A DNA stretch of 64,000 nt from Naegleria gruberi (taxonomy: Eukaryota). Position numbers and translations under genes: made by a program. Under the pieces are notes generated by a model that was given only the letters and a program-made list of their open reading frames with translations, ran no database searches and was not told the DNA's origin. The stretch is taken from assembly GCA_000004985.1 (NCBI GenBank), contig GG738849.1, one strand, 5' to 3'. Positions 544 through 20,320 of this stretch are shown piece by piece. Position 1 is the first letter of the stretch. Each line of letters begins with the position of its first letter.

Positions 544-3500
544 TTAATTGGTATTGTTGAAATTTCGTTGTAATAAAAGTAAGGAATCATAACTCTTTAC
601 ACTCTTCATGGTGCTAATCTTTTCATTATCTTTTGGAATCTGGAATGGTTTTTGTTGATCTTTGTACAAGGCACTATTTACAGGGAGGGGAGAATAAATA
701 CCCAAATCTTCGCTGTCTCTTCGTGGAGAAAGGAGGAGGGGAGTGAGGCCACTTGTACTACCCTTTCTTTCCTTAAAATGTGGTTGATTTGAATGGTAGA
801 CTTCATTATTTACAGGGCTAGAGCTGGAATTTTCCATTCTCTTTAGGATGAATCGGTGGAATTCATCAACAAATCTTTCCTGTCTTCTATTCTCAATAAC
901 TCTGGTACCACGAGCAAGTTTGACAGCTTCCATAGCTTTGGCAGAGTCTAACAAGAGTGGTTGACGAAGTAATAGTACACAACTAGCAAGAGTACCTGAT
1001 CTTCCCAAACCAGAAACACTCTAAAAATTGTTTGTAAAAATTCAAAGCAAATATACAACATACCACAATTACAACATCTTCACCTTTCTTATCCAATGCT
1101 TCCTTAATCCATTCACACAATAGCAGTGTGTAATTCATTGGAGGAGGATGTCTTTGTTGGACTGGTAACATTCTTGTTTCTATACCCAAATTAGTTGCCT
1201 CTCTCAACAAGTTACCAGAGAGGTGTTCCAATTCGTCTTGTGTACTTAAAACAACGAGCTTTTTAACATTATTCTTTTGTAACACTTTCAAATCATTGAC
1301 CATAACACCACCATGTGAAGGACGACCAGGAATGATTGAGATACCAAGTCTTCCATACTTTTTCTTTTTTGGAGTTGCACCATTTTCTGAGTTTTGAGTA
1401 TTGTTAATTTCTCTCTTTTCAGCTGCTTGTTGATCGAGCATCTTTAAATTAATCCAATCAATGTGGTACTTGTCATTTCTGAATGCCTTTCTTTCAATCT
1501 TTTGAGCCAGAGCACATGCTGTTGCAAGGGCCCAAGCTCTTTGATAAAGAGTTAAAGAGTTCAATGTTGCCATATGAAGAGTGTATCTAAGAAGAACAAT
1601 ATCTAATTGAACTGGGTTACGATCTCCTCGGACCAATCTCTTTGTAATGCTTCTCAATTCAGCAACAGTCTCCCAAGCTCTCTTGAGCTTCTCTGATTTC
1701 AAACCAGGAAGTGTTGGAGGTAATGGTTCAGCCAAGTCTTTGACAGAAACAAGTTCCTTAGTGATTAATAAAGCCTCTTCGAGTTCCTTTTCATTTTCCA
1801 ATACAGTATACTCAAAGAGAACATCAGTCTCAAACTTGACCACATCTTTCAATATGTGAGTTCTCTCTGTATATTCAAAATCTATGAGCCATACATTTTC
1901 ATTGCTGTCTAGAATTACATTTCTTCCATTCAAATCGCCATGTACAAATGAAACGTAGTGGAATGATTTTGCTAAATATCCTTGCTTGATCTTTGGAATG
2001 GAATCTCTCAAAAAGTGTACAATATTCCTCACTCTAAATCCTCCTGGGAATATCAAATACTTTTCTTCACCATGAATTGTTGGCATTGTAACGGTTGAAC
2101 TAGAGCTATTGGTAAATACATTGGTACCATTTGAGGTTGATGTTGCAGAGATGGGTGTTGAGATTTCCTCAACATCCGAAACAGTAGGAGAATTATCTTG
2201 GGTAAGTTTTGGAACTTGTCTTGGCTCAAAGAATGAGCAATCTCTCAGTTCTGCAAACATTTTAAGTGTTCGATCTCGGACAGCATCTGGATTATCTGTT
2301 CCTCCAGTATGCCAGGCCCAGCCCTTTCCATTGAAATCATACGTTTCGAACAAGTCAATTTGTTCCAAAACTGCTGCATCATAGAATCTTCCCAAAACGC
2401 CATAAAAAACTCGATGGAGAACAGATTTGATAGTTTGCATACTTCCTCCACTAATGTACAACTCTCTGAATGAGCCTGCTGATGGTGTCTTGGGTTGCTT
2501 CTTACTTGCAAATGGAGAGAGTGGTGATTTAGGAGAAAGTAAATCTGAATCTGATGAATATTGAAAATCATCCTCAAACATGGAAGCATATGCAAATTTG
2601 ATACCAGCTCTATCTTTCAATTCAGTAAAACCACGAATTTGAGGAGCATTATTACCTAAAATTTCCTCAACCTTTTCAAAATTGACTCTTTCTCTTGTGA
2701 TGGGACCTCTCCTTCCTATTTTCAAAATTGAAGTTGCTTGAACATGTCCCATACTATCCTTTGAGTTGACTTTAAATACCCATGAGCCTGAATACCCTCC
2801 TGAAAGAGGAGTAAACATTACATCAGTGCTATCATGGTACAATAAACAAATAATTTCCTTATCTACATCCGAGATTTTGTTAATATCATCACCCAGAGTT
2901 TTCCAATGAATACATGGAATAATACGATGCTCCTCGATTGACTCGTTTGCATCATCTAGTTCCATATCATTATCAGAGGATGGTATTGACAAGTCAAATG
3001 ATGTTGAAGTGGGAGATGGTGATATTTGTTTGAAGAAAAAGGCTCCACTACTCACAATGGAACTACTAGGAGTCTTTTTCCACCAAAATGGTATCAGCCA
3101 TTCTTGAAAGTCACATAAACTGTAAAATATTGAAACACTAAAGTACCTTTCTAATTGTTGTAAGCTAGCAAAGTGTTGATGTCTGGAACGACTTGCTGTC
3201 AAGGCACTACAAGTACCAAGTATTTGAGCAAACCTTCTATATCTTGTGAAGAGCTCATAAAATAAATATTGAATTGTTGATTCTGTCCATACACCAATAG
3301 CTCCAATTTTAACATTGAGCTTTTTTTGAGTACCATTTGTTAAATTTTCTTGGTCGAGTTGTTTTTGTTTTTTCTGAATTGCGTTCTGTATTTTTTCTTC
3401 TAGATCTGTATTGAAAAATGCATTAACACTTGTAATGTTTACATAGGATTCATTCTCACGATTGGGCACATCTTTATCCAAATTTAATACCAAGTTGGCA

Positions 3501-4825
3501 CCTGATGTTCCCTTAACAGAAAATAACCCATTACAAATATACTTGTCAGGAGAATCATCCTCACTAGTGGAGTCTGTCTTTTTACAAACCAAGTGATCAA
3601 TTTCATTCCAAAAACGAACATGAATTATTTCTAAATGAGCTGATGATTGTCTTCTGGCCCAATTCATAAAGTTTTTCAGTGGACCACTTTTATAATCACT
3701 TCCTAATAAACGTTGGCTTTCAGGTTTGCCAACATGCATAAATGTGCTCGAGTCAAAATCGAGAGAGCCCGAGTAATTTGTTCCCACTTGTTCAGGAAAC
3801 TTTCCTATAAAATCATTTTGTAAACAATTCGTAATTAATATACTAAAATCCTCAATATCCGAATTTTCCAAATTATTGTTATTTGAATTTTGTTCATAGA
3901 TATGTTGTGATTTGGAAGTTGAACTTTCCAACAATGAATTATTGGCCATAATATTATTATTATACCTTGATAAACTTTCCGATAATGAATTATTAACAAA
4001 TTTCAATAGTGATTGATTTGTTATAGTAGCTGCTGTATTACTATTTTTTGAATATTGGTGATGATTGCCTTCTCGTTGCTGTTCTTGTCTACTAGAAAAA
4101 AAGTCTTTTTCACCCATTAACGGCGATTCATTTTTTTGATTCGTTGGTGTTGGTGTGTTGTTATGGTGAACATTCTTGATTGGAGCAGATGTTTGAAAAT
4201 TCAACAAGTTTTCATCTCCGTCCGACATTTGTGTGAGTTGTTTGGAGTTTAATACACAGTATTGGTCCTTCTCACTCAATGAATGAGGAGGATTGAGAAG
4301 AGAAGAAGTATTGAATGATGCTGTTGCTGCGGTAAAATTTGTTAGATTGGAAGAATTAATTGTGCTCTCGAGGTGATTATTTGGTTGTATTGAATGTGGT
4401 TGTTGTTGCTGATTGAACATCCAACGAGTGCCGTGTTGTCTTAAATTAATGCTGCTACTACTATTGCTCTTATTACTTCTTTCCGATGATGAGAGAGATC
4501 GATGATGAAATATATTATTGTGATGAGGTGTTGTTGAGATGGTTGGAGTGAGGCAATCATGATTGTAGTTGTTAGTTGGTGGCAGTGGTTCAGATATTCT
4601 ACGGAAAGAAGGGGAACCATTTGTATGATGATGCTTACTTGGTGATGATGATGATGTTTTAGATTCAACACTTGTGGTAGCAAAGAGTTTTGTTTGTTGT
4701 TCTTTCATGACACTTATTTTCAATGATTCTTTCTGAGCTTTTCCAATACTATGTGTTTGGAAATGATTTATTAGAGATGATGACATTGGATTCTCTTGTG
4801 GTTTCTGTTGATGAAGGTTTTGCAT
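544..4825 (-). CDS. Large low-complexity protein with an aminoglycoside-phosphotransferase/actin-fragmin-kinase-like domain and a C-terminal PTP/DSP-like domain. Two exons, with a putative 43-nt intron at 1021..1063.
   Basis: ORF 983..4825 has a true ATG at 4823-4825. The kinase-like motif is 'FVHGDLNGRNVIL...VWLIDFEYT' (APH/choline-kinase-like Brenner and DFE motifs). The downstream ORF 544..1008 carries a PTP loop 'GLGRSGT' plus 'AVKLARGTRVIENRRQ'. It joins in frame through a GTATGT...TTTTAG intron. The junction predicts 'VVIV|SVSGLGRSGT', a Ser where the catalytic Cys is expected. Confidence 0.55.
1021..1063 (-). other. Putative intron (GTATGT...TTTTAG, 43 nt) joining the kinase-like ORF to the PTP-loop exon.
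   Basis: Minus-strand donor gtatgt at 1063..1058 and acceptor ag at 1022..1021. The frame is preserved (exon 1 phase 0, exon 2 'agt gtt tct ggt ttg gga aga'). Confidence 0.4.
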
Positions 4826-5195
4826 GTTTTTTCTTCTGTTCTAGTAGGTGATGATTCTTCAACTGTTGTTGATCTGGGAAGGAAGTCCTGATTCAACGAT
4901 TGACAGATGAATTTGCAACATTTGTATTATTTATTAATTACAATCTTTATCTTATTTCTGTAAACAATTTCTTAAAGTAGAGTTTCATGTTTCTGATGTA
5001 TTTGAAATCGACTTTACAGTTTAGTTGTTCAACAATTTTCATTTATTGGAAATTATTAAACTAAAACCAAAGCATACTCAAATTTAATTTTCAATTTTTA
5101 TAACTCTTTTAACTAGTTTTATTAAATCATATTACCATATTTTATAACATTTTATTATTAATAAATATTTCTTTTTGAATTCTAACCACAAAAAA
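4826..5195. promoter_or_regulatory. Divergent intergenic region between the APH-kinase-like gene (-) and the DEPDC5 homolog (+).
   Basis: About 370 bp with A/T homopolymer runs ('ttttataactcttttaactagttttattaaatcatattaccatattttataacattttattattaataaatatttctttttg') between two divergent ATGs. Confidence 0.4.
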
Positions 5196-8100
5196 ATGAA
5201 ATTACACAACCGAAGAATTAAACCTGCTGGAAGTGGATTAATTTCAGCCGTGGACAAGAATGCATCCACTGGGAATTTATTGGCACCACCACAACAACAA
5301 AATTCATCAAGGAGTGCTTCACCATCGTCAAACAATGTCGGAGCAGGAAATTTTAATACACCATCATCGAGTTATAGAAAATGTTTATTGATGGTCCATG
5401 AGAAGGATTTTAGTGATCAGGAAATATTAATTAATGGAAAAGCAATTACGTGGCTTCAAATAGGAGATATTTTGGAAATTTCTCAACCAAAGACGCCACC
5501 TTCTAATGAACATAATGCTACTACTTCATCATCACCAGTTTCTTCATCAGTGAATATTAATAGTGCCTCAACACCAATTGATATTTCTGGTGTTGCCACT
5601 CAGAATTATTCGGATTTATCCTTCTCTCCTTTTTCTTCATATAAATCACCAGCAAAAGCATCAACACCACCAACAGGGGCAAGTTTTAAACAAGCACCTT
5701 CAGTGGGGAATGTTACAAGTAATGCACAACAACAACAACCACAACCTAGTTTTACCTCCTCAGCAAGTAATCCAAAGACATTTATTGTAAAAGTAACTTC
5801 TCTAGATGCACAAAAAGGTGTTCCCTATTTGAGCATTTCAAAAAACATTGCAGACGTTTTTGATTTTCAATCGAGAAAGGATGTTTATGTTCGAGTAATA
5901 CCAAAAGAAAGTGCCATGTTGGACTATGCTGTTTTTTCTATTCGGGATCACTTTCTTTCCAGATCAGATATGTGGAGATTTGGATTATATTTGAATGATA
6001 CTAGTGTTTATGAATCAAAAACTTTAACATGGCATGGTGGTATCAGAGTCCAAGTAAAGGAACTCATGAAAGAAACAACTGGAAAAGTGTCATCAGGAAT
6101 AATAGTTTATGGTCATACCAAGATAACATATCGTTCAAATTCAGCTGTAATATATTGGTTATTCCAAATGAGTAGAGAAATGTGGGAATATGACGAGTAT
6201 GGTAACTTGATTTTTGAAAGAGTTATTAATGGATTTATTAAAACAGTTTTTGATAGATGGAGAGAAGTTGGTGTTAACCACTCACTATCAATAGTATTCT
6301 TTTCGAGACACTACATAACAGAAGAGGACAAGGATAATTTTGAAGAGACGAGAAATGAAGAGGATCATATGGCATCCTTAGGAAATAGAACAAATATTAA
6401 TCATTCTATTATTGGATCTAAAGATGGAAAACGATATGTAGATTTTTACAAAGTAGTTGATTGTACTGAAACTCAAAGAATACGATCACAAGAAATCAGA
6501 ATTCTTTTAAAGAAGGAATTTTTAGAATTTGAAAATATGGTAAAAGGTATAGCAGAAAAGGAAAGAGTAGTATTGCAAAATTCATCGGCAGCAGATAGTA
6601 ATTTTATGGAAGCTATTAATTTAGTTTTAAACAGTTATGACAAGTATTACATTAATCGTGATCTTACTAGAACAGGCCAAGTTATTCTTTTGGTATCACC
6701 AGGTAGTGGAATGTTTGATGTACAAATACCAGTTTTGGGTAAGATTACTACCAAAAGGTTGATGGATGTTGGTTTATCAGTTGACCTTATTGCCCATTCT
6801 GTTCCCCCACTTCACTCGGTACCTATTTTCAGGTATAAAAAGAAAGAAGTTGGAGTTTCTAATAACCAAGAATCACCTCATTTGAAGGAATATACATATT
6901 ATAGATCTCCTGATTGGATCAATATTACATTTTACAGAGAAAATTATTTCAAGAATGATATTTGTATAGATCATGAGGATTGTGAATGCACAGATAGCGC
7001 CAGTAATCTCTTCCTCCCAGTTTCTAAAATGCCTAATTTAGAAACGCTTCCAACCAACATTCCACTATTTGAAAAATACTGGACTAACTTTAATTCAATT
7101 AATAGCAATTCTCATCATACCAATAACTCGAGTGGAAGTATTGCAGAATTGTGTCGTCAACATGATGAACAAGTTTTCAAAATCTTCCAACAATCTCGTC
7201 AAACCTCCCACTACCAAACATCTTCCCTTTCCAATATTTCCCACATATCTAAAAAGACAAGCCTCTCATCACACGACCTTATTCATGGAACACCAACAAA
7301 GCAGAGAGAGGAAAGGTCCATAATTTCCGACTCGAGTCCAAAGAATCCCCACATTATCAATCACCACCTGGAAGAATTGAAACAATCTGAACACATTTCA
7401 GGACTGCCCAGCAGTGGTAGCAGTGTTGGATTTGAATCATCTTTTGATACCAATCATCAGAATGACTTCAATGGATCAACACCAAGTAATAATGCATCTA
7501 CAAATACTCCTCAACACGGAGGTTCTCATTCAACTCATCATCTTCCAATCACTCATAATTCTGCCAGTTCAATGGTAAATATGGGCAGTGCAAATAGTGG
7601 TGTTCTGCGACGTTCACCACATTCTGGAACACCATTCATGGCTGAACTAGCTGAAAGACACAAGGCCAAAGAATTGTTCTACATGAAACTGTTCAATCCA
7701 TTCCATATGGATTCCGAAACCTTATCAAGCCCAGGCTCACTTCAAAACAACAATCAACAAAACACTTTCCACAGAAAGAGATGGGGTCACTTACATCCAA
7801 GTTCAGGTCTCAGACCAACCCAAAAATCAGAATATATCAAACATTTTCTTCTCAATGTTAACTGGCAAGGTGTTTCAGAACCTGCCTGTTTACCAATTAC
7901 CACAGATTATTGGCCTGAGTCTGCCCTTAAGATTTTGAATGATTTTGATTTGCACACACATACCATTACTGATACCAATAATATTTACAAAAGTATTTCA
8001 ACCCTTGTGAGAGAATTAGTTTGTCAAAGATTACATCAAGGTTTCCAATTATTTAATGATGATTTACCCAAAGATCCTCTCAGTAACCAACCAATTATAA

Positions 8101-9792
8101 TAACACCTTTGCCAACTCGTAATGATGATACAGATAATACTTCTTCTTCACTGCGATAACACTGAAAAGTCTGATGCATCCAATAATATGGAAGCTGATA
8201 ATATTTCAACTATATCCACTGGATCAAACAATTCTGAACTCTCAACTCAATCAAAGAGAGGAAGAGGAGGAAGAGCTCTCAGAGGAGGAAGAGGTGTCAA
8301 TGCTGCTGCAATGAGAAGAAGGCCACCAACAACCAATACTTCTAACAGCACATCAGAAACAACAGTAACACACGAATCTTCATCAAAACAAAAGGTAAAA
8401 CCTCAAAAGATGGAATATTGTCTTTCTTCAGCAAATCAATTCCACAAAATAACCTACAATCCAAATATTTCCAACATGGTTACAATTGATCGTTATGTTC
8501 CTAAGGTTGCTAAAAGTGCAGACAAACCATCATCAACTACAAGTAGTGGAACCAATAGCTCATCCAATAATAGTTCCTCTACAACACTAGTCAATGATGC
8601 TGATCCATTTAATAATGCTAGATCCACTTACACTTATAGATACATGCTTTGGAATCCAACTTTGAAGAGCTATGAATCCAGAGTTACCAGATTCAATTCA
8701 GCAGTTGACTATAATTGGAATAAGTTGGATTACTTGATTTGTGGTGATCACAATCAAATGACAGACGAACTGCACAACAGATCCCTTCAATTCCACATTG
8801 TGCCAATCAACAACTCTAACAAGAACTTGTTTGCCTCTCAAACTCAATTATTTGGAGCTTTCAATAATAATTCTAGTTTACAGGTGCTTGGTGGTTCTAA
8901 CAACAATTCTAGTAGTGATTTATTCTCACAAGCTTCTAACAGCTCTAATGAATACACCAAGAGATTGGAAAACTTTAAGAAATTTAAAGATGCAATTGTA
9001 AATAGGTCATTTAGGGGAATGGATGGAGATAATGTTGATGTTTCACTTATTGGAGATGAGAGCTCAACTAACCAAATACCATCCAACAGCTCTGCTAAAA
9101 CAGCCAAACTTCAATTTGTCCCACAAGAAGGAGGAATTGATGACAACAGTCGTGTGGAGTGGTTAAATATTGTATATAAGGCATCTTACCATCCTGCAGA
9201 ATTTTGGTCGTTTAAGGTACAATGGCTTGTCTGTACAGCTGCCCTCATTGATGAATTTTTACAGACATTGGCCAGAAGAGCCAGGCAATTAGGATTTGCA
9301 ATGATTCAAACTCCAGCTGAAATTGATAGCTATACAAACTTTGTTCATGCCTCAAAACAAGCTGCAGATAGATTGTTACATGGCAATTATAAAACAGGAG
9401 GTCTAGATCCATTGGAGAATGTACATCCTTTCAGAAGTTATGTCAGAATACCAATTACCTCAATAGAGGCAATGTATTCTATTAGAAATGCCATTTGTGA
9501 ACCTCCTCTTAATTTTATTCCAGACTCTTTCCACAGAAAGAATTCAAAGAGATTTATTCACATCAGTGGTTGCATTATTTTACATATTGATGCTATTAAG
9601 GGCTCTGATACTGCCCTAATTACTTGGATAGACAATCCATTCCAAACTTTTGATTTGAATGTTGCCAATTCAGTCGACCAAAATGATATACTCAACACTT
9701 TGAGAAAACTTGTATTCTCGGAGGCATCAGGAGCAGGCAAGTTCACTTTACAACTAACTCCTGGAAGTAATCCTTTTGAATATTCCCAATAG
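5196..9792 (+). CDS. DEPDC5/Iml1 homolog (GATOR1 subunit). The coding sequence is split into two overlapping ORFs (5175..8159 frame 0 and 8122..9792 frame +1), implying a short intron or a 1-nt frameshift near 8119..8195.
   Basis: The N-terminal region aligns by eye with the human DEPDC5 Iml1 domain ('DMWRFGLYL...VIYWLFQMSREMWEYDEYGNLIFERVINGFIKTVFDRW...SIVFFSRHY' vs 'GDMWRLKKS...[35 protein letters not shown]...VVLFSRTFY'). Total length of about 1530 aa matches DEPDC5. A GTAATG...GGAAG candidate intron (8119..8194, 76 nt) would restore the frame but is not AT-rich. Confidence 0.6.
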
Positions 9793-16853: not shown

Positions 16854-19800
16854 ATGAAATCAAATAGTTCGGATGACTCTCCCACAACAGCAATTGCATC
16901 AAATATAATGGAATCAGTCAGACAACATCCTTCCATATCCCTAACTACAAGTAACAATGGTGGTATTCAAAATCAATTATCAACCTCGTTAACGAACAAT
17001 AATTCTAACACTTTATCTCCACTTAAGAGAAATAATATGTTTTGTAGCACTGCTTTCGAAAGTAGTGGATCGGGTGATGGTGATTTATTTGACTTTGAGT
17101 TAAGATCATCAAAGATGAAATCAACAACATCAACCCCAACAACACCTGTAACTTCGAATGTATGTTTTTAAAGATGATGATCATTATTAACGTTTTTAAT
17201 ATGCTTTCTAGACAAGGAACAATATGAACTTTCCAATTAGTAGCAGCACCAATCCAATTATTAATAATCAACAAGTAGATGTTACAATTGATCATCAACC
17301 AAACAAAGAAGCAAAAGATGAATCTGATTATGGTGTTAACATATCTGATACATCATCAACAATGACTTCTTTGGAACCATTAGGAGCAATCATTTTTGAA
17401 CAAAATTCAATTGAGGAACTGAGTTTTGAAGGAAAACAATTAAATGATGAAACCTTTCTGAGGGGTGTTACATTGAATATCGACAAGGGAGTCATTATTA
17501 ATTTACAAAATCAATTACAAAATCATTTACAACAGTATTCTTTGAACACAGCAAGACCTATTGCAGCAGATGAGTAAGTTTAATTTCAAAATTAATTTCA
17601 AAACTAATTTCAAAAGCCCTCAACAATATCATCTCAGAGCTTTACAGAATGTAAAGGAATTGAATCTGTCTGAAAATCAATTATACAGATTTCCTTTCAG
17701 TCTATTCTTCCTCAATTTACCGTCATCACTTTTATCATTAGGAAGCCCTCAACATAGGAAGAATAATGACTTATTACTTCCAAATATTACAAAATTGGAT
17801 ATTTCTCGAAATATTCTCAAAGTGTCAAGAATAGAATCAATTTTAAAGAAACAAAAGAATTTTGAAAAGATTCTGGAAAAGGAAAGAAAGGAATATTTGA
17901 AAGGAGAATCTAGTTCATCACATCGTAAAGTCTCATTGTCATTATTTAAAAATCAGGAAAATAAGGATTCTAATCTATCTGAGGAAGATCATAGGTCTTA
18001 CAGATATGAAAGTCTGAAGGAACTCAAGATGAACTTTAATCAGCTGAAAGTATATCCTCTCTTTGTTCACACTTTCTTCCCAAGACTGGCCAAATTAGAT
18101 TTAAGTTTCAATCATTTGAATTCTGAGAGTATTGAACTTTCTGAGAATAGAAACTCTAAAAGCTTACAAACCATGTTCGAAAAGGAGAGAGGAGTCAAGC
18201 AAAAAAAGTTGGGACTTTTCAATAGAAAGAATCAACACAACAATGATAATAGTCCTCCAAACTTTCTTTCTGTTCACTCTGGTTCTGATGTTGAGACAAG
18301 TCCTGTTGTCAGCAATATACCTACAAACGAAATATGGTCACCAAATACATCGGCAAATGTAGATGAAAAAATTTTCACAAAATCCCACAGTAATCCTATT
18401 AATCCTAACACTCGATTTTTTGAGGCTGGAACTTCAGATCCCTCATTAACAGAGTTAGATTTGTCTAGTAATTTGTTCAAAAATTTCCCCATTTCTCTCA
18501 AGCTTAGGAATTTGAGAATTTTAAAACTCAATAAGAATGTGCAAATGAATCCTATGGCTGAGAAATCGAATATTGGTGATGTGTCAAAGAAGGAAATGAA
18601 ATTGTTGGCTGAAAGTTCAGAAAAGGGCTTTGATTTTGATTCAGACCTTCATAGAGTATGCAAAGACAATTTACCTAATCTGGAATATTTGGAAATGGTT
18701 GATTGCAAATTTGTTACATTCCCTTCCAATATCTTGTGTATAGAACCATTGAAAACCTTGATTTTTGATAAGAATCCATTTGGTGCTGGAAGTTTGCAAC
18801 ACAGAAGTCAGCAAATCGTGCAAAAGGTTAAAATATTATCAAAAGACAAGAATACATCACCAAATATTCTCGAAAAAATCAGTGATGACAGCGATATTAA
18901 CGATTCCTTATTGAGAGGATTCCCAGATCTTACTCAAATTGGATCCAAGTTTAGTATTGGTCTTACAAAATTGTCTGTAAATAGTTGTAGATTGAACCTA
19001 GAGCAAGATTTACCTAGAATTCTCAAATTTTTACCTACACTCAAGTGCCTTAAAGCAAGTAATAACTTATTCAAGGGAAAGATTGATTCTACTTTTGAAG
19101 TTTATTCAAATATTGAAGATTTGGACCTTTCTAATAACTACCTCCAAGGTTTTTCCTTCAATATTTTCCCAAATGCCAAGTTAATTAATTTGGAAAACAA
19201 TAAGATTTGTGAGGAAATAACATGGATTCCTAATTCTATTATCTCCTTCAACTTGCAAAATAACCTATTCTCTGGAGATTTAGAAAAGATTATTTCTAAA
19301 TGTACAGGCCTAGAGGAATTAATTGTTTCTAAAAACAATTTTACATCACTTCCACTAATTGATAATTTCCCATTGTTGAGAAGTTATAAGGTTTCTGAAA
19401 ATAAGATCAGTCTCTCACAATTCCCATTATTGGCCAGTAATAATTTCGACATGAATAACTTGGAAGCAGTTGAAATTGCAAACCATGGCATTCTAGATAT
19501 TCCTTCCGAGTTCTTTACTAGATGTTCCAATGTCAGCGTTCTTGACTTGTCCAGTAATTTTATCAGAAGTATTCCTAGCGAAATAGCAAGACTCACAAAA
19601 TTGACTCACCTCTACTTGAAGTATAACGAAATCTCTGATTTGGTCGAGGAAAGTTTTATGACATTGGCAAGTCTTAAATATATTGAAGCAAAGCAAAATT
19701 CAAAGAGGGTATCCCAACTCATAGAATCAGATAGTAACTTGCATAAATGGCTTGTTGACCACTCGATTGATATTTCAGAGAATAGTTTTAAAGAGCCTGA

Positions 19801-20320
19801 CCTCATTGAACCAACCTTATATCTAGGATGTAAACAATCCTCCTCTCATTACTCTACCTTAAAGAATATTGGTATTACTCACATTTTAACAATAGCAAGT
19901 GAATTCAATCCAAGATTTCATGACAGAGAGTACTCATCACTGCCAGATTTTACAGAAAAATTATCTTTCATAGAATCAAGTCACGAGTTTGTCACAAAAC
20001 ATGTGAAAATGAAGGAAACTCAGAATACAGATCTAATTGCTACTTTTGAAGAATGCTTACCTTTCATTGAAGAGGGTACAGATCAGTCTCAAGGTCCCAG
20101 AAAGATTCTCATTCACTGTCATGTTGGTATCAATAGAAGTGCCAGTATTGTGATAATGTATTTGATGAAGAAGAATCAATGGACTCTCAATGAAAGTTTA
20201 AAATTTGTAAGAGACAAGAGACCTATAGTTCTTCCAATGCCCGAGTTTGTTAAACAATTGAAACAGTACAATATCCAATTGAGAAAGGAAAGAAAAAAGG
20301 ATTCTGGGGTTGGTTTTTGA
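16854..20320 (+). CDS. MAP-kinase-phosphatase-like protein with leucine-rich repeats and a C-terminal dual-specificity phosphatase domain (dictyostelid 'mpl' type). Three exons: 16854..17159, 17212..17573 and 17617..20320.
   Basis: LRRs ('LDLSSNLFKNFP', 'LDLSNNYLQGF', 'LDLSSNFIRSIPSEI'); DSP signature 'VLIHCHVGINRSASIVIMYLM'. The three ORFs 16854..17171, 17224..17577 and 17561..20320 join in frame through a GTATGT...TTTCTAG intron (17160..17211) and a GTAAGT...AAAAG intron (17574..17616). Confidence 0.75.
17160..17211 (+). other. Intron 1 of the mpl-like gene (52 nt, GTATGT...TTTCTAG).
   Basis: Canonical donor and acceptor; joins phase-0 exons 'TPVTSN|TRNNMNFP'. Confidence 0.6.
17574..17616 (+). 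other. Intron 2 of the mpl-like gene (43 nt, GTAAGT...CAAAAG).
   Basis: The donor follows 'GA' (phase 2) and the acceptor restores 'GAC CCT CAA CAA TAT', in frame with the 919-aa ORF. Confidence 0.55.

What the first reader, a model, noticed from the sequence alone, without database searches (positions are those of the whole stretch)
983..1100. APH/actin-fragmin-kinase-like protein fused to a PTP-like domain whose predicted splice yields Ser in place of the catalytic Cys
The C-terminal domain has the PTP-loop 'GLGRSGT' and flanking DSP-like helices. With the only frame-consistent GT...AG intron (1021..1063), the active-site context reads 'VVIV-SVSGLGRSGT', giving SX5R instead of CX5R. That would be a natural pseudophosphatase or substrate-trap domain attached to an atypical kinase-like domain. 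If the splice is instead unconventional, a 'VVIVVCC' reading could retain a Cys.
Basis: inference. Interest (0 to 1): 0.5.

Follow-up and report, generated by a model that had tools for sequence, protein, structure and literature searches.

The report
Kinase fused to a dead phosphatase
A Naegleria gruberi gene encodes a bacterial-type kinase joined to a phosphatase-like domain whose essential cysteine is a serine; every eukaryotic relative I could check shares this change and bacterial relatives do not, so it is a conserved inactive phosphatase and not a splicing artefact.

Summary
On the minus strand, exon 1 (4825..1064) ends in ...GEDVVIV. A 43-nt GTATGT...TTTTAG intron (1063..1021) follows, and exon 2 starts with AGT, giving VVIV-SVSGLGRSGT. 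The spliced 1412-aa product is identical to Naegleria gruberi XP_002681824.1 (NAEGRDRAFT_63037, "predicted protein"). The Ser does not depend on the splice. The Willaertia magna orthologue is an intronless ORF encoding VVIVSMSGLGRSGT, and Acrasis, Percolomonas, Heterolobosea BB2, Luapelamoeba and five eukaryotic metagenome contigs also encode Ser there.

Among 63 representative domains of this family, 45 have Cys (42 as HC, 44 with the general-acid Asp). One has Gly. Seventeen have Ser, none with the adjacent His and only three with the Asp.

Best reading: a conserved pseudophosphatase, with HC replaced by VS much as MK-STYX has FS, that keeps the phosphate-binding loop and probably binds phospho-ligands next to an active kinase. 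It is a new member of a known kind, and interest is modest.

The parts
1064..4825 (-). Exon 1 of NAEGRDRAFT_63037 (aa 1-1254), from ATG at 4825 to ...GTA ATT GTG (V-I-V) at 1064
   Evidence: The spliced model is identical to XP_002681824.1.
1021..1063 (-). 43-nt phase-0 intron, GTATGT...TTTTAG. It must be removed to reach the conserved C-terminal 158 residues. If retained, the ORF stops at 985-983.
   Evidence: The junction aligns without a gap to the intronless Willaertia orthologue. The intron is retained in the ORF-style call P0019 from a near-identical strain.
544..1020 (-). Exon 2 (aa 1255-1412 plus stop TAA at 546-544)
1018..1020 (-). AGT codon = Ser1255, at the position of the PTP nucleophile Cys. 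It is the first codon of exon 2.
   Evidence: It aligns to the C->S position of KAP 1fpz and SsoPTP 2dxp. Bacterial homologues have Cys there.
991..1020 (-). P-loop SVSGLGRSGT (aa 1255-1264). The GLGR part, including the phosphate-binding Arg1261, is invariant across the family.
   Evidence: Invariant columns G140 L141 G142 R143 in alignment A1; table
1142..1168 (-). Loop LPVQQRHPP (aa 1220-1228), equivalent to the general-acid loop 'LPILDQ.VP' of bacterial homologues. The Asp is replaced by Gln.
829..1363 (-). KAP/CDKN3-like PTP-fold domain (aa ~1155-1318), interrupted by the intron
1451..2968 (-). TCAD9 kinase-like domain (aa ~620-1125) with two disordered inserts. Catalytic loop HGDLNGRN is at 1942-1919, IDFEY at 1885-1871 and the beta3 Lys (SILKIG) at 2731-2714.
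3101..3874 (-). Degenerate isochorismatase/nicotinamidase-like domain (aa ~318-575) shared with the bacterial homologues
   Evidence: Alignment. Bacterial homologues carry PF00857. The family profile hits isochorismatase 3hb7 at E=1.8e-7. The window protein alone gives no Pfam PF00857 hit.
3875..4825 (-). Low-complexity N-terminal extension (aa 1-317), poorly conserved
   Evidence: 26% identity to Willaertia over a partial alignment
547..828 (-). C-terminal tail (aa 1319-1412), divergent except for short conserved islands (IYSPLP at 699-682, VKSYDSLL at 600-577)

Best explanation
The C-terminal domain of N. gruberi NAEGRDRAFT_63037 is a KAP/CDKN3-like PTP-fold domain that has lost Cys-dependent catalysis. 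The nucleophile Cys is Ser1255, the adjacent His is Val, and the general-acid Asp is Gln. It keeps the phosphate-binding cradle (GLGR-S-G, including the invariant Arg) and is held under purifying selection.

Shown: the sequence, the splice, the fold, the replaced residues and their distribution across relatives.

Inferred: the domain no longer hydrolyses phosphoesters and instead acts as a non-catalytic phospho-ligand binding ('reader' or 'trap') module. It sits next to a TCAD9 kinase domain whose catalytic motifs are intact. On this reading the bacterial ancestor's writer-plus-eraser pair has become a writer-plus-reader. The ligand could be the kinase's own product, an autophosphorylation site, or possibly the conserved YSP-containing C-tail.

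The three-domain protein (isochorismatase-like, TCAD9, PTP) is of bacterial type and was probably acquired horizontally by eukaryotes.
For: Sequence and splice:
- The model equals XP_002681824.1, and the junction aligns gap-free to the intronless Willaertia ORF.
- Ser is encoded contiguously, with no intron, in Willaertia (TCC), Acrasis (AGT) and the metagenome contigs L006, L009, L010, L011 and L012.
- Ser is also present in transcriptome-derived proteins of Percolomonas, Luapelamoeba and Heterolobosea BB2.

Family-wide pattern:
- 45 of 63 domains have Cys (42 as HC), and 44 of those 45 keep the Asp.
- 17 of 63 have Ser. None of these has His at -1, and only three sequences (two lineages) keep the Asp.
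- Every Ser form whose origin could be checked is eukaryotic.
- The one HC form whose origin I checked, P0009 from a Leptospiraceae MAG, is bacterial by both name and gene neighbourhood.

Fold:
- The KAP and SsoPTP entries matched are themselves engineered C->S forms, and their Ser aligns with Ser1255.

Conservation:
- The PTP domain is 68% identical to Willaertia. The isochorismatase-like domain is 69%, the kinase 79-83%, and the tails 26-36%.
- GLGR, PGR and RG.R are invariant.

Kinase: HGD...N...D plus the beta3 Lys and alphaC Glu are conserved.

Precedent: human MK-STYX has IFSTQGISRS (HC replaced by FS), is inactive, and becomes active when HC is restored (PMC2873733).
Against: - The junction rests on the public gene model plus homology.
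- Loss of activity and phospho-ligand binding are inferred from residues, not measured.
- The P-loop also changed Gly to Ser at -1 (HC.GGLGR became VS.SGLGR), which could alter the pocket.
- The kinase's substrate is unknown. Its structural neighbours are small-molecule and peptide kinases, so a protein phospho-site 'reader' role is speculative.
- The bacterial homologue examined sits in no informative operon, and PADLOC finds nothing.
- Only one HC form was checked for origin; that the rest are bacterial is assumed from their length and lack of low-complexity regions.
Confidence: 0.68

Rival explanations
1. The dead PTP domain binds no phospho-ligand at all. It survives only as a structural or allosteric partner of the kinase domain, for example as a docking or autoinhibitory module.
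For: The two-domain AF2 model is a single confident body (pTM 0.78). Three catalytic residues are lost together. Gly to Ser at -1 of the P-loop may narrow the pocket.
Against: The phosphate-binding GLGR(S/T)G, including the Arg, is invariant in all 17 Ser forms and across the whole family. That is hard to explain if the pocket were unused.
Confidence: 0.2
2. The domain is still a hydrolase or transferase, using Ser1255 or another residue as nucleophile on some phospho- or other anionic substrate.
For: Ser specifically (not Gly, Ala or Asp) is kept in all 17 eukaryotic forms, through both codon families (AGT and TCN). This suggests selection for the hydroxyl itself.
Against: Engineered C->S PTPs such as KAP C140S and SsoPTP C96S are used as inactive substrate traps (PDB entries). 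The His that lowers the nucleophile pKa and the general-acid Asp are also gone. MK-STYX with FS is inactive (PMC2873733). From my own knowledge, no PTP-fold enzyme with a Ser nucleophile is known.
Confidence: 0.06
3. The real mRNA uses a non-canonical junction or is edited, so that a Cys ('VVIVVC-VSGLGRS') precedes the P-loop and the phosphatase is active.
For: Two TGT codons lie just inside the intron's 5' end. Junctions TT..AG (1058-1019) or GT..GA (1059-1020) would give CX5R.
Against: These junctions are non-canonical and add one residue relative to every orthologue. Orthologues without an intron encode Ser directly. The His and Asp would still be missing. In the near-identical strain one of those TGT codons is TTT (VVCF instead of VVCC), as expected for unconstrained intron sequence.
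Confidence: 0.02
4. The C-terminal part is a decaying remnant or a gene-model artefact. The true protein ends in the retained intron, as in the ORF-style call P0019.
For: A public ORF call (P0019, 1274 aa) ends ...VVIVVCFIFALNFYKQFLECFWFGKIRYSC.
Against: Exon 2 encodes about 65 further residues of a confidently folded PTP domain (pLDDT >90). This part is well conserved with Willaertia, the PTP domain as a whole being 68% identical. P0019 comes from a metagenome-type gene caller that cannot splice.
Confidence: 0.01

Closest known systems
KAP / CDKN3 (kinase-associated phosphatase; PDB 1fpz, 1fq1; Pfam PF05706)
   Different: KAP is a stand-alone active HCX5R enzyme that removes the activating phosphate from CDK2. 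Here the domain is fused to a non-CDK, APH-like kinase and naturally carries the Ser that was engineered into the KAP crystal form. The window protein alone scores below the Pfam CDKN3 cut-off (15.2 against 20.7 bits).
MK-STYX/STYXL1 and STYX (DSP-family pseudophosphatases)
   Different: The lineage is unrelated (KAP/SsoPTP-like, of bacterial origin, not MKP-like). The domain is fused in cis to a kinase-like domain and an isochorismatase-like domain, and it has additionally lost the general-acid Asp. No binding partner is known.
Bacterial isochorismatase-like, TCAD9 and DSP-PTP proteins (for example P0009, Leptospiraceae MAG; Pfam PF00857+PF19974+PF22784/PF22785)
   Same: They share the three-domain order and align end to end (33-48% identity per domain). 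The kinase motifs are the same, as are the PGR, GLGR and RG.R motifs of the PTP domain.
   Different: The bacterial forms have HC.GGLGR and the 'P.xDQ' Asp, so they are presumably active phosphatases. They also lack the low-complexity N-terminus, the inserts and the C-tail.
APH-type small-molecule and peptide kinases (LxmK 9dk1, APH 3csv, corramycin kinase 8agy, MTR kinase 2olc, FN3K, choline kinase)
   Different: Sequence identity is only 10-17%. No sequence-level PDB hit covers the kinase part among the 60 best matches shown. The substrate is unknown.
Actin-fragmin kinase
   Same: Both belong to the broad protein-kinase-like fold (from my own knowledge).

Membership tests
Active Cys-based PTP/DSP superfamily | Nucleophilic Cys in the (I/V)HCX5R(S/T) signature | tested here: not met
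   The sequence is IV-S-VSGLG-R-S. Ser1255 (AGT, 1020-1018) aligns to the Cys position.
Active Cys-based PTP/DSP superfamily | P-loop Arg and the Gly-rich phosphate cradle | tested here: met
   GLGR is invariant in A1.
Active Cys-based PTP/DSP superfamily | General-acid Asp on the loop preceding the P-loop | tested here: not met
   LPVQQRHPP here against bacterial LPILDQ.VP.
Active Cys-based PTP/DSP superfamily | PTP alpha/beta fold | tested here: met
   AF2 pLDDT 91.8. KAP, SsoPTP, Tk-PTP and PTPMT1 are the top hits.
Pseudophosphatase (STYX-type: PTP fold, catalytically dead, retained under selection) | PTP fold with the catalytic nucleophile replaced | tested here: met
Pseudophosphatase (STYX-type: PTP fold, catalytically dead, retained under selection) | The replacement is conserved among orthologues and the domain is under constraint (not a decaying gene) | tested here: met
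   17 Ser forms across several eukaryotic lineages. The PTP domain is 68% identical to Willaertia, against 26-36% in the tails.
Pseudophosphatase (STYX-type: PTP fold, catalytically dead, retained under selection) | Lack of phosphatase activity, with binding of a phospho-ligand or partner | not testable with these tools
   This needs recombinant protein assays.
TCAD9 (Pfam PF19974), protein-kinase-like | Score above the Pfam gathering cut-off | tested here: met
   132.7 bits against a cut-off of 40, E=2.6e-38.
TCAD9 (Pfam PF19974), protein-kinase-like | Kinase catalytic residues (beta3 Lys, alphaC Glu, HxD...N, DF-type Asp) | tested here: met
   K83 and E93 are nearly invariant. H343, G344, D345, N350 and D363 are invariant. 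All are present in the window protein.
TCAD9 (Pfam PF19974), protein-kinase-like | Association with a 'ternary' conflict-system operon, as the family name implies | tested here: not met
   The eukaryotic gene stands among ordinary eukaryotic genes. The one bacterial neighbourhood examined shows no such system. PADLOC finds nothing.
CDKN3/KAP (Pfam PF05706) | Score above the Pfam gathering cut-off | tested here: not met
   15.2 bits against a cut-off of 20.7 for the window protein. The family profile nevertheless hits KAP at E=8.7e-33 and KAP is the best fold match. It is therefore a related domain and not a CDKN3 orthologue.
Actin-fragmin kinase (Pfam PF09192) | Any sequence or preferential structural match | tested here: not met
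   No hit.
Isochorismatase/nicotinamidase (Pfam PF00857) | Pfam match and the catalytic Asp-Lys-Cys triad | tested here: not met
   The window protein gives no hit at E<=0.1. Homology is visible only through the bacterial homologues and the family profile (3hb7 at E=1.8e-7). By eye, the nucleophile position reads GVWTEST here and GVWTEAK in bacteria.

The most novel reading that the evidence does not exclude
Several eukaryotic lineages inherited or exchanged a bacterial three-domain 'sensor, kinase, phosphatase' protein. These include Heterolobosea, an amoebozoan and at least one GC-rich lineage. In every eukaryotic copy the eraser was converted to a Ser-containing, His- and mostly Asp-less domain. 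Ser is maintained through both codon families, which implies selection for the hydroxyl. This could mark an undescribed writer-reader signalling module in which the dead KAP-like domain clamps the kinase's own phospho-product. Less likely, it could mark a PTP-fold domain with new Ser-based chemistry.
Probability: 0.2. Interest if true: 0.55.

Novelty: new member of a known kind. Interest (0 to 1): 0.3.

Why it matters
It gives a domain-level reading to a N. gruberi 'predicted protein': a degenerate isochorismatase-like domain, an apparently active APH-like TCAD9 kinase, and a KAP-like pseudophosphatase.

It also shows a split within one protein family. Forms with Cys include the one bacterial homologue I checked, and every Ser form I could trace is eukaryotic. 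That is a natural experiment on how an enzyme pair, kinase plus phosphatase, is rewired after transfer into eukaryotes.

It adds a protist example, of bacterial origin, to the pseudophosphatases, which are otherwise known mostly from animals.

The gene model itself is not new and no function is demonstrated, so the finding is mainly of interest to specialists in pseudoenzymes and protist signalling.

Tried and rejected
- **Other junctions.** I enumerated every donor/acceptor pair around 1000-1085. No canonical pair gives Cys, so the 'VVIVVCC' reading is rejected.
- **Paralogues in the window.** tblastn found only the gene itself.
- **Defence-system membership.** PADLOC gave nothing and NCBIfam only sub-threshold kinase or PTP fragments. 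The bacterial neighbourhood of P0009 shows no conserved system.
- **Literature.** 'TCAD9' appears in the text only as a Pfam/KINtaro family name, and the eLife 2020 ternary-systems paper does not use the term in its main text. Searches for Naegleria with pseudophosphatase or phosphatome found nothing on this gene.
- **tRNA scan.** No tRNAs in the window.
- **NJ tree of kinase C-lobe plus PTP.** The known eukaryotic Ser forms group together, with a second Ser cluster (P0047, P0048, P0094). The tree is crude, and fragments (P0157, P0084, P0053) are misplaced with zero-length branches. I therefore do not use it to count conversion events.
- **A second intron example.** I looked at the IML1/DEPDC5 ORF break (8122-8159) and saw no clear GT..AG there.

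Full report
**What is in the sequence**

The feature lies on the minus strand. A long ORF starting at ATG 4825 reads ...LDKKGEDVVIV up to base 1064. It then runs into GTATGTTGTATATTTGCTTTGAATTTTTACAAACAATTTTTAG (1063..1021, 43 nt). A different frame resumes at 1020 with AGT GTT TCT GGT TTG GGA AGA TCA GGT ACT, that is SVSGLGRSGT, and continues to TAA at 546-544. Removing the 43-nt intron joins the two frames and gives a 1412-aa protein with the motif VVIV-SVSGLGRSGT, which is SX5R(S) instead of CX5R(S).

**Is the splice right?**

Three lines of evidence say yes.

- The spliced product is identical, residue for residue, to the public Naegleria gruberi protein XP_002681824.1 / EFC49080.1 / D2V2L1_NAEGR (NAEGRDRAFT_63037, 'predicted protein'). 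This also identifies the window as N. gruberi. The neighbouring genes are ordinary eukaryotic ones: IML1/DEPDC5, a UCH protease, a cNMP-binding protein, a GH47 mannosidase, an LRR-DSP phosphatase and a protein kinase.
- The closest orthologue is from Willaertia magna (P0001, 68% identity over the queried kinase-PTP region). It is encoded by a single uninterrupted 3429-nt ORF. Its DNA reads GTT ATT GTT TCC ATG TCA GGC TTA GGA AGA = VIV-S-MSGLGR. The N. gruberi junction aligns to it without any gap (GEDVVIVSVSGLGRSGTLASCVLL against GENVVIVSMSGLGRSGTLASCVLL).
- I enumerated all junctions that keep GLGRSGT in frame. All four give Ser, because the AGT codon is the first codon of exon 2. A Cys in the nucleophile position needs non-canonical junctions (TT..AG 1058-1019, GT..GA 1059-1020 and similar), and these add a residue relative to every orthologue.

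A near-identical strain is represented by an ORF-style call that reads through the intron (P0019, ending ...VVIVVCFIFALNFYKQFLECFWFGKIRYSC). It differs from the window inside the intron (VVCF against VVCC), as expected for non-coding sequence. I had no N. gruberi transcript data.

**What the domains are**

- **N-terminal domain.** Upstream (aa ~318-575) is a degenerate isochorismatase/nicotinamidase-like domain. It is recognisable through the bacterial homologues, which carry PF00857, and through the family profile (3hb7 at E=1.8e-7).

**The family-wide pattern**

Homology searches recover a mostly bacterial-type family of about 770-790-aa proteins with the same three domains, plus a smaller set of eukaryotic members. 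I aligned 63 representative PTP domains.

| Residue at nucleophile position | Count | Notes |
|---|---|---|
| Cys | 45 | 42 as 'HC'; 44 of 45 keep the general-acid Asp ('P.xDQ') |
| Gly | 1 | 'HG' (P0081) |
| Ser | 17 | Includes the window. None has His at -1. Asp is kept in three sequences from two lineages: Percolomonas ('PITDH') and Heterolobosea BB2 ('FIDH'). |

Every Ser form whose origin could be checked is eukaryotic:

- N. gruberi, Willaertia magna and Acrasis kona, from genomes.
- Percolomonas sp. WS, Heterolobosea sp. BB2 and the amoebozoan Luapelamoeba hula, from transcriptomes, so Ser is present at the mRNA level.
- Contigs whose neighbours are RhoGEF, myosin-TH1 and SH3 (L009), PH (L010), Sec23, Stealth, PET117 and VPS51 (L011, GC 61%), and NDUFA12 and a mitochondrial carrier (L012).

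The one HC form whose origin I checked (P0009) is named as a Leptospiraceae MAG protein and sits among bacterial genes. The other HC forms were not checked individually.

In N. gruberi and Willaertia the Asp is Gln (LPVQQRHPP and LPILQRHPP). So three catalytic residues (His, Cys, Asp) are lost together, while GLGR with the phosphate-binding Arg stays invariant, as do the PGR and RG.R motifs. The domain is not decaying. It is 68% identical between Naegleria and Willaertia, like the isochorismatase-like domain (69%) and far above the tails (26-36%).

**How it most likely works**

Shown: the domain has a PTP fold with Ser for Cys, Val for His and Gln for Asp. The P-loop and Arg are retained, the domain is under constraint, and the adjacent kinase core is intact.

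Established knowledge: the Cys thiolate is the obligatory nucleophile of PTP-fold phosphatases, and C->S mutants are standard inactive substrate traps. KAP C140S bound to phospho-CDK2 (1fq1) is itself among the hits. Human MK-STYX carries the same kind of replacement (HC to FS, IFSTQGISRS), is inactive, and becomes active when HC is restored (PMC2873733). One eukaryotic relative here (P0047) even has IFSLSGLGRS.

Inference: the N. gruberi domain is a pseudophosphatase that still binds a phosphorylated or anionic ligand. It converts the ancestral kinase-plus-phosphatase pair into a kinase plus a phospho-binding module. The ligand is unknown. Candidates are the kinase's product, an autophosphorylation site, or the conserved YSP and KSYD islands of the C-tail.

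Rivals:
- A purely structural or allosteric role with an unused pocket. This is argued against by the invariant GLGR.
- Residual or new Ser-based catalysis. This is argued against by the loss of His and Asp and by precedent, though the persistence of Ser through both codon families is notable.
- A non-canonical splice that restores Cys, which I reject.
- An artefact or truncated gene, which I reject.

**Comparison with what is known, and novelty**

The domain works like STYX or MK-STYX-type pseudophosphatases. By descent it is a KAP/SsoPTP-like domain of the bacterial TCAD9-PTP family. It fails the defining Cys and Asp tests for an active PTP. It also scores below the Pfam cut-off for CDKN3, so it is a relative and not an orthologue of KAP.

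The gene model is already public, and the families (TCAD9, DSP-PTP variants) are in Pfam. I found no paper that discusses this protein or the split between Cys and Ser forms. I therefore rate it a new member of a known kind, with modest interest. The most interesting residue of the analysis is the consistent Ser in all traceable eukaryotic copies. The Ser codon is AGT in Naegleria, Acrasis and P0004, but TCC, TCA or TCT in Willaertia, P0002, P0005, P0047 and P0048. This points either to repeated C->S events or to Ser being specifically selected.

Noticed in passing
window 1018-1020 (-); L001 ~5959; L002 ~5311; L006, L009, L010, L011, L012: The Ser codon at the former Cys position belongs to different codon families even in close relatives. 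It is AGT in N. gruberi, Acrasis and P0004, and TCC, TCA or TCT in Willaertia, P0002, P0005, P0047 and P0048. Both classes are one step from a Cys codon. Either C->S happened more than once, or Ser was kept through a two-step codon switch.
   Followed up: partly
window 1021-1063 (-): The 43-nt intron sits exactly at the codon boundary before the substituted residue and appears specific to the N. gruberi lineage. It is absent from the intronless Willaertia gene, from Acrasis, and from the 79%-identical metagenome fragment P0036. It is present in the near-identical strain behind P0019.
   Followed up: partly
window 3101-3874 (-), aa 318-575: The N-terminal isochorismatase/nicotinamidase-like domain looks catalytically degenerate in the whole family: the nucleophile position reads GVWTEAK in bacteria and GVWTEST here. 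N. gruberi has further lost the bacterial 'RDWH' and 'GPHC' motifs. It may be a ligand-sensing domain.
   Followed up: partly
window 577-600 and 682-699 (-): Short conserved islands sit in the otherwise divergent C-terminal tail: (I/M/L)YSP.P and (V/M)KSYD(S/C)LL. They are shared by N. gruberi, the fragment P0036 and Willaertia, and could be phosphorylation or docking motifs.
   Followed up: no
window 17561-20320 (+): A separate LRR plus DSP phosphatase gene has an intact HCHVGINRS active site. It is an active-type DSP in the same window, for contrast.
   Followed up: partly
window 5175-9792 (+): An IML1/DEPDC5-like gene is split into two overlapping ORFs (5175-8159 and 8122-9792) with a frame change near 8122-8159. 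No obvious GT..AG intron is visible there, so it could be a small intron, a frameshift or an assembly error.
   Followed up: partly
P0081 (327-aa fragment; motif at residues ~265-278): One family member that keeps the His and the Asp has 'HG' (Gly in place of Cys, as in STYX). This suggests occasional nucleophile loss outside the Ser group as well.
   Followed up: no
P0019 (ENA contig, 1274 aa): A public ORF-style protein call for a near-identical Naegleria strain reads through the intron and so lacks the P-loop and the C-terminal 158 residues. It also differs from the window protein by indels in the low-complexity N-terminus.
   Followed up: partly
L011 (GCA_040384145.1, GC 61%) and L012: A second, divergent group of Ser-containing homologues (P0047, P0048, and the fragment P0094 of unknown origin) lies on eukaryotic contigs of very different base composition from Heterolobosea (P0047 and P0048 checked). 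The family is therefore spread over distant eukaryotes.
   Followed up: partly
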